From Rickettsiales bacterium (lineage in GTDB: Bacteria > Pseudomonadota > Alphaproteobacteria > Rickettsiales > JABSSG01): 64,000 nucleotides of DNA. This document shows, piece by piece, positions 27,001 to 30,000 of this stretch. The DNA is taken from assembly GCA_013214525.1 (NCBI GenBank), contig JABSSG010000024.1, positions 44,754-108,753 of the forward strand. Reading direction: 5' to 3'. How positions within the stretch are numbered: the first letter of the stretch is position 1; every line of letters starts with the position of its first letter. Position numbers: made by a program.

Positions 27001-30000
27001 ACCACTGCCACTTTCACGCTTTAACCTAATTTTACCTATCTTCATATCCAAATCATCATAAATAACAATAACTCTTTCTGCTGGTATTTTATAAAAACTT
27101 ACAAATTTACTTATTGCCTTACCTGAGTCATTCATAAAAACAAGTGGTTTAACAGCTATTATTTTTTCACTAGCAATAATACCCTTATATACTTGAGATA
27201 CAAATTTATCTTTTTCCGATTGAAGATTATAACAAGAAATAATTTCATCTAAAGCAAGCCAACCAACATTATGTCTGGTTTTTTTATATTTTTCCCCTGG
27301 GTTTCCTAATCCTACAACTAAATACATAAATTTTTTTATCTAAACACTATTAAATAACACAACTGTAACATTATTACACGCAAGATTAATTTACAATCTC
27401 AGATGCTTAAAGAAATAAATAATGGTTTGTATCTTAAGTAGTACTAGTATAAAAACAAGCATAAAGTTACTCATCAAATGAACAATCTTTTTGTACAAAT
27501 ATTACTGTTTGGAGCCCTATTTTCTTTTTTAGCTATAGGTTTTTTGTATCAAAAAAAACCTAAAAATATTAAGGAATATGCATTGGGAGGGAATAATATT
27601 GGTCTTTTTGCATTAATCTCTACAGTGATAGCTACAGCTTTTGGTGGACGAAGCATAATAGGTACATCTGCTGCATTATATCAACAAGGCATTTGGTTGT
27701 GCCTAGTAATGTGTGTCAGACCCATTGGCATGTGCCTCATGTCTCTTTTAATAGTCCCTAAATTATCTAAATATTACGGCTGTTTTTCAGTTTCCGAAGT
27801 AATAGGACGCATGTACGGAAAATATGCACAAAAACTAGGAGGAATTACGTCCTTCACATTTTGCATTGGAATGTTAGCAGCACAAATCAAATCCTTACAT
27901 TGGGTAATGGAACACATATTTGAGCAAAACGCATTATCTGCAACAATAATTGCACTTGCAATAATGATCCTCTACTCAAGCATTGGAGGAGTAGTTTCTG
28001 TTATCAAAACCGACATATTACAATTACTTATTTTTATAATAATAGTTCCAGCAGTAAGTTATCATGTTATTCATATATCAGGAGGTGTTACTGCAATAAT
28101 TGAATCTTTACCTGAAACTAAACGTATACTTGTACCTGATGGTAGTATTTGGATGATGATTTCATTAATAAGCCTTTATCTATTACCTGACATAAACCCT
28201 TGGATGATTCATAGAATTTTAATAGGCAGAAGTCGCAAAAAAAATCAAACAACAATTTACTTATTGGCCTTTGTAAGTTTGTTAAACTTAATTTTCGTTA
28301 GTTCTGTTGCATTTATAGCTATTTCAAAATTCCCCAATGCCATTCCTAAAGAAACAATATTTATTGTTGTACGTAATATTATTAAAAGTAAATTGATAAT
28401 ATCATCATTTGCAATTGCGTTGATTGCGATGATCATGTCTACTGCTGATTCTGTAATTAATACTGGAGCTATTGTTTTTATTAATGATGTTATAGATCAA
28501 AAAACTACTGATAAAAAAAAGATCAAGTTATTACAATATATTACTGTTTCATCAGGAATAATAGCTACAATCATAGCATTCCTTTTCTCAACTGTATTAG
28601 ATATAATATGGTTTTTTTCAGAATGCTACTTCATTGTTATGCTAATGCCTTTTGTTATAGGATTATTTCTAAAAAAAACAGAAGATTTAGCATTTTGGGC
28701 CAGCACTTGTGTCGGTATATTTTTATTTTGTACATTACGTATTGCATATTACAAATTAAATCATGAGATTTTTTTGATCAGCATTATAGGAGGATTATGT
28801 GCATACTTAATCACTTCTTTAATTTACATCAATCGTACTTGAAAAATGTGAGAATTCAAGATGTGCAATGGATATAATATAATATAAATTATTTTTTATC
28901 TTTGTTTTCAGTATCTGGAGCAGCAGATTTTGCTTCATCTCCTTTAGCTTCTGTAGTTTCATCAGTAGCTTCTCCTTCTTCTCCTGGTGCTGCAATTTCT
29001 GCTTCCTCAATAACTTTTCTCTTACCTGTTAGCCTCAGAAAAGTTTGGTTTAAATCTTTGATAAGCAAACTAACACCTTCAGGTAAAATAATATCTTTAA
29101 GACGTAATGTTATTCCTACATCCATTTTACTTACATCAATTTCAATGCAAGAGGGCACTTTATCTTTTACAACTTTACAAGGAAGAGATCTGAACACTAT
29201 ATTTAGTAAACCGCCTTTTTTAATTCCTGGACATTTCTCTTTACCTTTAACACTTACAGGAATGCGTATTCGTAACTCCTTTGCTTTTTCATTAACAAAC
29301 ATAAAATCCACATGCTCTACAGAGTCAGTAACTGGATGAAGACTAAATTGTTTAGGAAAAACATTATAGTCTTTATCTGCTAACTTTAATTTTGTCATAG
29401 CAGTTTTTATCCTAGATTTATTGTAAAGAGTTTCTGCTTCTTTTTGACTGATAGAAATAAGTTTTGTTTCTTCACCTTTACCATAAACAACTGCTGGCAC
29501 ATATCCAGAGCCCCTTAAACTTCTTGTAGCACCAGTACCTACTTTTTCTCTTAAATTTGCTTGAATTAATAAAGAATCACTCATAAAATTATATTTTTTA
29601 AATTAAAAGCTTTTAATACAGTTCCAACCTGAATCCCTGTAATATATATATAAAATACAAATTAGTCAAAGCCTAGTTTAATGCAAATTTTTAAAATAAG
29701 TAATTTAGAAACTCCAACTCGCCTTACCTCATGGCTAAAATCTAATTTCAGCTTAAATTATACGCTAATTCAAAAACTTATTCGCAAATCAGACATAAAG
29801 GTAAATGCACAAAAAATCTCTCAAAATTATAAATTATCTAATGGTGATATAGTTACTATTTATACAACCATAAACACACAAAAATCAATTACTCGTAAAA
29901 TTGACCCTCAATTACATTCACAGCTATTGAAACAAATAAAAAAATCAATTGTCTTTAAGGATAACAACATAATAGTGATCAATAAACCATATAACGTTGC

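What the first reader, a model, noticed from the sequence alone, without database searches (positions are those of the whole stretch)
28825..28876. A repeat terminus supplies the stop codon of the truncated SSS paralogue
The 454-aa SSS protein ends ...IYINRT-TGA, encoded by ATC AAT CGT ACT TGA. That is the left-terminus core AATCGTACTTGAA of the palindromic element. The long paralogue (46357..48819) continues at the homologous position (LCVYFITFFIVRDNKLSQQ...) for another ~370 aa. The left terminus contains stops in two of three frames (TAA and TGA), so an insertion would usually truncate a gene. Downstream is only a 52-bp mini element and then rplY on the other strand. The C-terminal region was therefore either deleted after insertion or never present.
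Basis: partly seen in the sequence, partly recalled or inferred. Interest (0 to 1): 0.55.

Follow-up and report, generated by a model that had tools for sequence, protein, structure and literature searches.

The report
Repeat end terminates a shortened transporter gene
In an uncultured Rickettsiales genome, a transporter gene that has lost its sensor half ends exactly where a small mobile-type repeat begins, and that repeat supplies its last five codons and stop codon; this is real but an ordinary kind of event.

Summary
The 454-aa SSS gene (27478..28842, +) ends TAC ATC AAT CGT ACT TGA. Bases 28831-28847 match the left-terminus core of a ~165-nt palindromic, MITE-like repeat exactly over 17 nt. 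That repeat has at least 14 loci in the window. A repeat HMM aligns 28825-28880 to left-arm positions 5-60.

DNA and protein similarity to the long paralogue and to foreign long relatives stops at codon 449 (28824). The repeat alignment starts one base later.

Trees place the short gene inside a 100%-bootstrap clade whose other members are 820-855 aa, or a pseudogenised long copy. The short form is therefore derived. Its transporter domain is complete and keeps 57 of 59 clade-conserved residues. No remnant of the C-terminal region survives.

New context: the gene lies antisense inside the otherwise conserved rplY-pth-ychF cluster.

Caveats:
- The "52-bp mini element" is a degenerate one-arm remnant, not a good palindrome.
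- The lost region is not demonstrably kinase-like in this genome.
- It is not shown that the repeat caused the truncation rather than arriving later.

The kind of event is known: bacterial MITEs at ORF ends, and truncated symporter-kinase copies in Rickettsiales. Interest is modest.

The parts
27478..28842 (+). Short SSS (sodium:solute symporter) gene, 454 aa, a complete transporter domain without the C-terminal extension
   Evidence: ORF. Pfam SSF scores 52.2 bits and covers profile positions 1-402 of 406. The TIGR panF model is covered 9-467 of 471. The protein is 51% identical to the long paralogue over residues 1-449. It keeps 57 of 59 clade-conserved residues. The exact protein is carried by 3 contigs in public assemblies.
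28825..28842 (+). Repeat-derived tail of the ORF: codons Y450 I451 N452 R453 T454 plus TGA
   Evidence: Homology to the long forms ends at ATT (I449, 28822-24), both in protein and in DNA. The repeat HMM alignment starts at 28825. The consensus terminus TAT ACT AAT CGT ACT TGA translates to YTNRT* in this frame.
28831..28847 (+). 17-nt exact match to the repeat's left-terminus core (AATCGTACTTGAAAAAT), which contains the stop codon
   Evidence: (five exact 13-mers) and D3 (compare copy 12355-12404). Terminus weight matrix: 13.4 bits, with 0.32 such sites expected per window.
28825..28880 (+). It fills most of the 46-nt spacer to rplY.
   Evidence: nhmmer aligns it to model positions 5-60 (8.3 bits, E = 0.052). 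Beyond the first 17 nt, identity to the reference copy is about 61% (D3). It forms no significant hairpin.
28889..29584 (-). rplY (ribosomal protein L25/Ctc), convergent with the SSS gene
   Evidence: Pfam Ribosomal_L25p 1.9e-21 and Ribosomal_TL5_C 1.5e-17.
26770..27327 (-). pth (peptidyl-tRNA hydrolase), divergent from the SSS gene. It is normally the immediate downstream neighbour of rplY.
   Evidence: Pfam Pept_tRNA_hydro on the called gene. rplY and pth are adjacent in 49 of 52 alphaproteobacterial loci.
25649..26752 (-). ychF, third gene of the conserved cluster
   Evidence: Pfam MMR_HSR1 and YchF-GTPase_C. It is 55-61% identical to alphaproteobacterial YchF.
46357..48819 (+). Long paralogue, 820 aa: SSS domain, multi-helix membrane module and a cytoplasmic domain of about 190 aa with unknown fold
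   Evidence: The membrane module is homologous to that of a bona fide SSS-histidine kinase (hhalign probability 96%). The cytoplasmic part has no detectable kinase similarity.
12347..12514 (+). Reference full-length copy of the repeat family. Other full copies: 11871-12032, 31291-31459, 32809-32996, 36735-36901, 53525-53691, 19992-20178(-). Mini copy: 33034-33106.
   Evidence: Hairpin -63.3 kcal/mol, z = -12.2. The mini copy has z = -7.7.

Best explanation
The window comes from an uncultured Rickettsiales MAG. It carries a lineage-specific family of ~165-nt palindromic, MITE-like repeats with termini TATACTAATCGTACTTGAA...TTCAGGTATGATTAGTATA.

The 454-aa SSS gene descends from a longer fusion gene (SSS transporter, membrane module and cytoplasmic signalling-type domain, about 820-855 aa). 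It sits as a secondary insertion, antisense, between rplY and pth.

Its reading frame leaves ancestral sequence after codon 449 and runs straight into the outer end of a repeat copy. In that frame the repeat reads Y-(T/I)-N-R-T-stop. So the repeat provides the last five codons and the TGA. A decayed arm of the same copy fills the spacer to rplY.

Most likely the truncation is repeat-associated. There are two routes:
- The element inserted into the linker just after the last transporter helix, and the dead 1.1-kb downstream part was later deleted.
- An element already lying behind the full-length gene, where this family normally sits, produced a deletion starting at its own terminus and reaching back to codon 450.

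Either way the result is an intact stand-alone transporter, uncoupled from its sensor module.

Shown: the junction, the repeat origin of the stop codon, the derived state of the short form, the intact transporter domain and the operon interruption.
Inferred: that the repeat caused the truncation, and the order of events.
For: - Repeat identity of the gene tail: 17-nt exact core; terminus matrix 13.4 bits against 0.32 expected sites per window; HMM alignment 28825-28880 to left-arm positions 5-60.
- Junction: the protein alignments to long, L003 and L004 end at I449. In DNA the long paralogue and L003 both continue ATT GTT AGA, while the short gene switches to TAC ATC AAT CGT....
- Derived state: an exhaustive search gives full-length relatives with 36% identity or more of 816-863 aa. 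NJ trees put short in a 100%-bootstrap clade with long_820, L003_855, P0034_843 and the pseudogenised long L001a, with P0035_817 as sister.
- No C-terminal remnant anywhere else in the window.
- Functional core: full SSF coverage and 57 of 59 conserved residues kept.
- Secondary location: rplY and pth are adjacent in 49 of 52 alphaproteobacterial loci, and no SSS gene is found in any of the 80 ychF loci.
- The terminus has stops in all three frames, so any ORF running into it terminates within 9 codons.
- Not an assembly artefact: the exact protein occurs on 3 contigs from different assemblies, and the shared exact sequence is only 17 nt.
Against: - No sister genome with the ancestral state of this locus was found, so the order of events is untested.
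- This is the only one of about 14 repeat loci whose sequence contains the 3' end and stop codon of a long ORF. The others are intergenic and many lie 0-30 nt from gene 3' ends. A late arrival beside an already short gene is therefore plausible.
- The breakpoint is also the natural end of the transporter domain. Stand-alone relatives end 9-54 aa after the same column.
- The outermost 6 nt match the consensus at only 3 of 6 positions (TACATC against TATACT). The interior of the remnant is about 61% identical, while the 17-nt core is perfect. Simple neutral decay of one old copy does not explain that uneven pattern.
- The short-long split is old (50% amino-acid identity), whereas a recognisable repeat should be young. 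The gene would then have been long, or elsewhere, for most of its history.
Confidence: 0.55

Rival explanations
1. The gene was already short, having lost or never had the C-terminal region at this locus by an unrelated event. A repeat copy later landed at its 3' end, as the family habitually does next to stop codons. It overwrote only a few dispensable tail codons and the original stop.
For: All other copies are intergenic. Eight element ends lie within 30 nt of a gene 3' end. One copy (31291-31459) fills the spacer between two convergent stop codons to within 2-4 nt (sequence). Stand-alone relatives have dispensable tails of 9-54 aa after the last helix. Independent short forms exist elsewhere in the wider clade (P0044_465, P0047_476, P0049), so domain loss does not need this repeat.
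Against: It needs two separate events to hit the same few codons. Homology to the long forms runs to the very codon before the repeat alignment begins. No trace of an older tail or stop codon remains in the 46-nt spacer.
Confidence: 0.3
2. Only the 5' (transporter) part of a long gene was ever copied into the rplY-pth spacer. The repeat marks the recombination breakpoint of that partial duplication or transfer, so the C-terminal region was never present at this locus.
For: The gene is a secondary insertion into a conserved operon. The inserted block (27328-28888, 1561 nt) is almost exactly promoter region, transporter domain and repeat remnant. Long relatives elsewhere lie in mobile, ICE-like contexts next to a response regulator and tra-like genes, or transposase and DnaA_N fragments.
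Against: There is no repeat remnant on the 5' side. nhmmer finds nothing in 27328-27477. A terminus-like site at 27430-27451(-) fell from 9.7 to 4.4 bits when the matrix register was corrected, with about 0.02 such sites expected by chance in that 150-nt stretch. No mechanism is directly supported.
Confidence: 0.12
3. The overlap is a chance resemblance or an assembly chimera formed at a repeat.
For: The HMM hit alone is marginal (E = 0.052). The region does not fold like a genuine element. The source is a metagenome-assembled genome.
Against: A 17-nt exact match to the terminus core sits in the right register, followed by a colinear left-arm alignment. The terminus matrix expects 0.32 sites per 64 kb at this score. 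The identical 454-aa product is called on 3 contigs from different assemblies. Seventeen shared bases are fewer than the k-mer lengths assemblers typically use (own knowledge; the assembler and its k are unknown here).
Confidence: 0.03

Closest known systems
Rickettsia palindromic elements (RPE; Ogata et al. 2000, 2002, as summarised in PMC2229807)
   Same: Palindromic repeats of 100-150 bp that fold into long hairpins. They are dispersed in genomes of the order Rickettsiales, and some copies lie inside protein-coding genes.
   Different: RPEs are open in the inserted frame and are translated as in-frame peptide insertions. This family has stop codons in all three frames of its terminus, so it ends an ORF rather than extending it. 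Sequence relatedness to RPE consensus sequences was not tested (no library was available). No Rfam family matches.
Bacterial MITEs such as Correia/NEMIS, RUP, ERIC and RU-3 (review PMC2229807)
   Same: They have terminal inverted repeats, 5'-TA-3' at both ends, no ORF, many copies and mostly intergenic positions. The 155-bp Correia form and RUP have stops in all frames. RU-3 is reported at the C-terminal end of a fused ORF.
   Different: The host lineage and sequence differ. Here the element end coincides with a domain boundary of a two-module protein and leaves a working transporter. No partner transposase was identified.
Multi-copy symporter-histidine-kinase genes ('PutP', 'PanF') and their truncated or degraded copies in Orientia tsutsugamushi RAGE and inter-RAGE regions (PMC10732058)
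   Same: Rickettsiales SSS proteins fused to signalling domains. They are present in several copies, some truncated, and are associated with integrative conjugative elements. The foreign long relatives found here have the same kind of neighbourhood.
   Different: [quoted passage not shown] No role of a small repeat in setting the breakpoint is described there. Orthology to the Orientia genes was not tested.
SLC5/STAC histidine kinases CbrA, CrbS and RpuS (PMC7096432, PMC9100948)
   Same: An N-terminal SSS/SLC5 transporter domain is fused to a signalling module ('transceptor'). Losing the module would uncouple transport from signalling.
   Different: No STAC, PAS, HisKA or HATPase match was found in the window's long paralogue. 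The linker is an extra multi-helix membrane module. Only more distant clade members (P0003) match kinase domains in Pfam. P0041 shows an H-box motif (HEMRSP) on reading its sequence.
Adjacent deletions generated by transposable-element ends (classical IS1/IS10/IS903 behaviour; own knowledge, not tested)
   Same: One deletion endpoint lies exactly at the element terminus and the other at a variable point in neighbouring DNA. That would give a gene fused directly to an element end.
   Different: It has not been demonstrated for this element family, and no transposase is known for it.

Membership tests
Bacterial MITE (non-autonomous inverted-repeat element) | Terminal inverted repeats and a long hairpin potential | tested here: met
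   Arms are 75-91% complementary (I4 and I6). Full copy: -63.3 kcal/mol, z = -12.2. Mini copy: z = -7.7. The copy at 28825-28880 itself does not meet this criterion.
Bacterial MITE (non-autonomous inverted-repeat element) | Small size, no ORF, many dispersed copies | tested here: met
   Copies are 50-190 nt, at about 14 loci in 64 kb. The reference-copy left arm has stops in all three frames.
Bacterial MITE (non-autonomous inverted-repeat element) | Target-site duplication | tested here: inconclusive
   Nearly all clear copies start TATACT and end AGTATA, apart from one-base variants at 31456 and 36900. A TA duplication therefore cannot be separated from the inverted repeat itself.
Bacterial MITE (non-autonomous inverted-repeat element) | A parent IS or transposase with the same termini, or evidence of mobility | not tested
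   No transposase search was run on the window, and only 64 kb of a 307-kb scaffold was seen. The repeat is absent from L001-L004 and from 80 alphaproteobacterial loci.
Rickettsia palindromic elements (RPE) | Translatable in frame when inserted in genes | tested here: not met
   The terminus reads YTNRT*, ILIVLEKS* and Y* in the three frames.
Rickettsia palindromic elements (RPE) | Sequence similarity to the RPE-1..8 consensus sequences | not testable with these tools
   No RPE library was available. Rfam has no match.
Sodium:solute symporter family (PF00474, TC 2.A.21) | A match to the family model above the curated cut-off, covering the whole domain | tested here: met
   Short protein: 52.2 bits against a cut-off of 22.8, profile positions 1-402 of 406. 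It is below the cut-offs of the specific PutP and PanF equivalog models, so the substrate is unknown.
SSS-histidine kinase fusion (transceptor) | HisKA and HATPase_c domains C-terminal to the SSS domain | tested here: not met
   The window's long paralogue, L003 and L004 have no such match. hhalign of their cytoplasmic domain against true kinase relatives gives probability 0.5%. P0003, a more distant relative, has both domains. The shared membrane module aligns at 96% probability.
SLC5/STAC kinases (CbrA/CrbS type) | A STAC domain between the transporter and the kinase | tested here: not met
   No Pfam hit other than SSF at E <= 1, apart from a sub-threshold DUF7365 match (E = 0.29, 11.7 bits against a cut-off of 27).

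The most novel reading that the evidence does not exclude
The repeat family actively remodels genes in this lineage. A terminus-anchored deletion or insertion cut a transporter-sensor fusion precisely at its domain boundary. That produced a working stand-alone transporter, and the same elements may have helped move the gene fragment into the essential rplY-pth-ychF operon. This would be a bacterial example of small non-autonomous repeats driving domain shedding and gene-fragment relocation.
Probability: 0.12. Interest if true: 0.55.

Novelty: new member of a known kind. Interest (0 to 1): 0.3.

Why it matters
The locus is a clean, base-resolved example of how a small dispersed repeat can define a protein's C-terminus. 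It also shows how a two-module 'transceptor' can be reduced to a plain transporter in a reduced, repeat-rich intracellular-type genome.

It is useful for annotation. The short gene should be called an intact but derived SSS transporter, not a pseudogene. The repeat family should be masked or annotated.

It does not open a new mechanism. MITEs fused to ORF ends and truncated symporter-kinase copies in Rickettsiales are both already described.

Tried and rejected
- Mini-palindrome reading of 28825-28876: folding is not significant (z = +0.69 on +, -2.0 on -). I kept it only as a decayed one-arm remnant.
- Second repeat end on the 5' side of the gene (27430-27451, -): 9.7 bits with a first matrix, 4.4 bits after correcting two registers, and no nhmmer hit. 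Dropped.
- Remnants of the C-terminal region: tblastn with four C-terminal regions found nothing near 28843-28888 or elsewhere, apart from the long paralogue itself.
- Syntenic orthologues:
  - The genome-contig scan with an SSS alignment found nothing.
  - The metagenome scan gave only two long relatives in other contexts.
  - P0002, which ends within a residue of the same column, is a piece of a pseudogenised long gene.
- Kinase nature of the lost region:
  - No Pfam or PDB sequence hit.
  - hhalign against true kinases was negative for the cytoplasmic part.
  - A word-index homologue search with the C-terminal region returned nothing.
  - The single-sequence AlphaFold model was too poor to use (pLDDT 41), so no fold search was run.
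- Rfam: no family at the locus or for the repeats.
- The same repeat in relatives: absent from L001-L004 and from 80 alphaproteobacterial loci.
- A one-mismatch terminus core at 40311-40323 (-) lies inside coding sequence with no flanking repeat similarity. I treated it as chance.
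Full report
**What is at the coordinates**

The window is AT-rich (30.6% G+C). It is identical to scaffold_1 (307 kb) of a metagenome-assembled 'Rickettsiales bacterium'.

The ORF 27478..28842 (+) encodes 454 aa and ends ...ATT TAC ATC AAT CGT ACT TGA, with the stop at 28840-28842. Forty-six bases further on, the convergent ORF 28889..29584 (-) is ribosomal protein L25/Ctc.

**The repeat family**

The 13-mer AATCGTACTTGAA occurs five times exactly. With up to two mismatches it occurs 19 times, against 2.4 expected. 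The other exact copies are the left ends of a palindromic element of about 165 nt: TATACTAATCGTACTTGAA...TTCAGGTATGATTAGTATA.

An HMM built from six full copies finds about 14 loci in the 64 kb. These include mini copies (33034-33106) and several one-arm or solo-terminus remnants. Genuine copies fold into long hairpins, with z = -12.2 for 12347-12514 and -7.7 for the mini copy.

The repeats have no Rfam match. They were not found in any related or alphaproteobacterial locus fetched here. By anatomy they are MITE-like. A parent transposase, a target duplication and mobility were not established.

**Is the gene's end really repeat sequence?**

Yes, on four counts:
- The match to copy 12355 is exact over 17 nt, 28831-28847 (D3).
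- A 22-nt terminus matrix scores 28825-28846 at 13.4 bits. Simulated sequences give 0.32 such sites per window, and the real window has 28.
- The HMM aligns 28825-28880 colinearly to left-arm positions 5-60, at 8.3 bits and E = 0.052 for the whole window.
- In the gene's frame the consensus terminus reads Y-T-N-R-T-stop, and the gene ends Y-I-N-R-T-stop.

The stretch does not fold better than shuffles on the + strand (z = +0.69) and only marginally on the - strand (z = -2.0). I read it as a decayed one-arm remnant, of which the window holds several.

The identical protein is called on three contigs from different assemblies, and only 17 bases are shared exactly. An assembly chimera is therefore unlikely.

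**Where homology to the long form stops**

The long paralogue (46357..48819, 820 aa) is 51% identical over residues 1-449 of both proteins without a gap. In a multiple alignment, the long paralogue and two foreign long relatives (L003, 855 aa; L004, 822 aa) continue for 371-406 aa after that column.

In DNA, the long paralogue and L003 both read ATT GTT AGA at this point. The short gene reads ATT TAC ATC AAT CGT. The break therefore lies between 28824 and 28825, which is exactly where the repeat alignment starts.

**Is the short form derived?**

An exhaustive HMMER search of 1.84 billion representatives gives these nearest full-length relatives: 820, 843, 817, 817, 822, 834, 863, 833, 816 and 821 aa.

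Neighbour-joining trees of the transporter domain place the short protein in a 100%-bootstrap clade with:
- the long paralogue;
- L003_855;
- P0034_843;
- L001a, a long-type copy broken by a frameshift and a stop codon.

P0035_817 is the sister (consistent). The C-terminal region was therefore lost on the branch to the short gene.

P0002 ends one residue past the short gene's breakpoint column. However, its contig still carries the C-terminal region 190 nt downstream in another frame, as well as an N-terminal frameshift. It is a dead long gene, not a short orthologue.

Other short or truncated forms (P0040_530, P0047_476, P0044_465) occur in the wider clade. At least P0040 and P0047 are nested among long forms. 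Loss of the C-terminal module is therefore recurrent.

**Is the short gene alive?**

It covers the whole Pfam SSF model (positions 1-402 of 406) and the panF model to position 467 of 471. It retains 57 of 59 positions that are conserved across the clade, as many as the long paralogue. It looks like a functional stand-alone transporter of unknown substrate.

**What was lost**

The C-terminal extension consists of a multi-helix membrane module and a cytoplasmic domain of about 190 aa.

The membrane module is homologous to that of P0003, a relative with HisKA and HATPase_c domains that is followed by a response regulator (hhalign 96%).

The cytoplasmic domain of the window's long paralogue and its close relatives is a different matter:
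- It has no Pfam or PDB sequence match.
- It has no profile similarity to the true kinases.
- A single-sequence structure model was unusable.

'Kinase-like' is thus a positional analogy, not a demonstrated homology.

**Remnants**

tblastn with four C-terminal regions finds nothing in or near 28843-28888, and nothing elsewhere in the window except the long paralogue. With 46 nt available, this test could hardly have been positive.

**New context: an interrupted operon**

ychF (25649..26752), pth (26770..27327) and rplY (28889..29584) are all on the minus strand. The SSS gene lies between pth and rplY on the plus strand.

Among 80 alphaproteobacterial ychF loci, rplY and pth were both detected in 52. 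In 49 of those they are adjacent and co-oriented, including in an uncultured Rickettsiales MAG. None of the 80 loci has an SSS gene there.

The short gene is therefore a secondary arrival in this spacer. The inserted block (27328-28888) is little more than a 150-nt upstream region, the transporter domain and the repeat remnant. No repeat trace is detectable on the 5' side.

**How it most likely came about**

Shown:
- the repeat-derived stop codon;
- the coincidence of the breakpoint with the repeat end;
- the derived state of the short form;
- the intact transporter core;
- the secondary location.

Inferred: that the repeat caused the truncation. I rate that at about 0.55. It could have happened in two ways:
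- The element inserted into the linker, and the downstream 1.1 kb was later lost.
- A deletion was anchored at the terminus of an element that already lay behind the full-length gene, the position this family normally occupies.

The main rival (about 0.3) is that the gene was already short and the element merely landed on its last codons. All other copies are intergenic. Eight element ends lie within 30 nt of a gene 3' end, and one copy fills a convergent spacer to within 2-4 nt of both stop codons.

A partial-copy origin, in which the C-terminus was never present here, is possible (about 0.12) but has no 5' repeat to support it. Chance or misassembly is unlikely (about 0.03).

One feature is not well explained by any scenario. 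The 17-nt core is perfect, while the outer 6 nt (3 of 6 matching) and the interior (about 61%) have diverged.

**Comparison with what is known**

Small palindromic repeats inside or at the ends of genes are well documented. RPEs are translated in frame in Rickettsia. Correia, RUP and ERIC are TA-ended MITEs, some with stops in all frames. RU-3 has been found at the C-terminal end of a fused ORF (PMC2229807).

Symporters fused to kinase domains, present in several copies with truncated or degraded versions, are described for Orientia RAGE regions (PMC10732058). The foreign long relatives found here sit beside response regulators and tra-like genes. SLC5-kinase 'transceptors' such as CbrA and CrbS are a different architecture (PMC7096432, PMC9100948).

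The present case is a new example of a known kind of event, in an undescribed repeat family of an uncultured lineage.

**Verdict**

Novelty: a new member of a known kind. Interest: 0.3.

Noticed in passing
window 25649-29584: The conserved rplY-pth-ychF cluster is split. The short SSS gene lies antisense between rplY and pth. These two genes are adjacent in 49 of 52 alphaproteobacterial loci, and none of the 80 loci has an SSS gene there.
   Followed up: yes
window 31291-31459: A full-length repeat copy fills the entire spacer between the convergent ORFs 30632-31288 (+) and 31459-32796 (-). It ends 2-4 nt from both stop codons. Several other copies also abut gene 3' ends, which suggests a site preference or strong purging elsewhere.
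   Followed up: partly
window 13653-13674, 19915-19962, 21794-21823, 31468-31501, 39397-39423, 53693-53717: Solo termini and one-arm fragments of the repeat family, some directly beside full copies. The family is decaying or rearranging in place.
   Followed up: partly
window 47700-48819 (long paralogue residues ~450-820): The C-terminal extension is a multi-helix membrane module shared with true SSS-histidine kinases. It is followed by a cytoplasmic domain of about 190 aa with no H-box and no recognisable HATPase motifs. No Pfam, PDB or profile match was found, so this is either a degenerate kinase or an unknown domain.
   Followed up: partly
L003 146-5525 and L004 6007-11419: The foreign long relatives (855 and 822 aa) share a neighbourhood: an antisense HTH gene, a single-domain response regulator and then small membrane/tra-like ORFs. 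This resembles integrative conjugative (RAGE-like) elements.
   Followed up: no
L001 4815-7259 and 11718-12491: One contig carries a pseudogenised long-type copy (a frameshift near 5050, a stop codon at 6165, and the C-terminal region in another frame). It also carries a second copy with a nearly identical N-terminus that runs off the contig end. DnaA_N fragments and a Transposase_31 gene lie around them. This suggests recent duplication or gene conversion in a degrading region.
   Followed up: partly
window 61235-61482 and 62713-62960: Two stretches about 71% identical lie 1478 nt apart (repeat families D9 and D15). They are probably tandem paralogous genes.
   Followed up: no
window 46357-48819: The long paralogue was not returned by either word-index protein search, although it is in the representative library as P0033. 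This is a database quirk, not biology.
   Followed up: no
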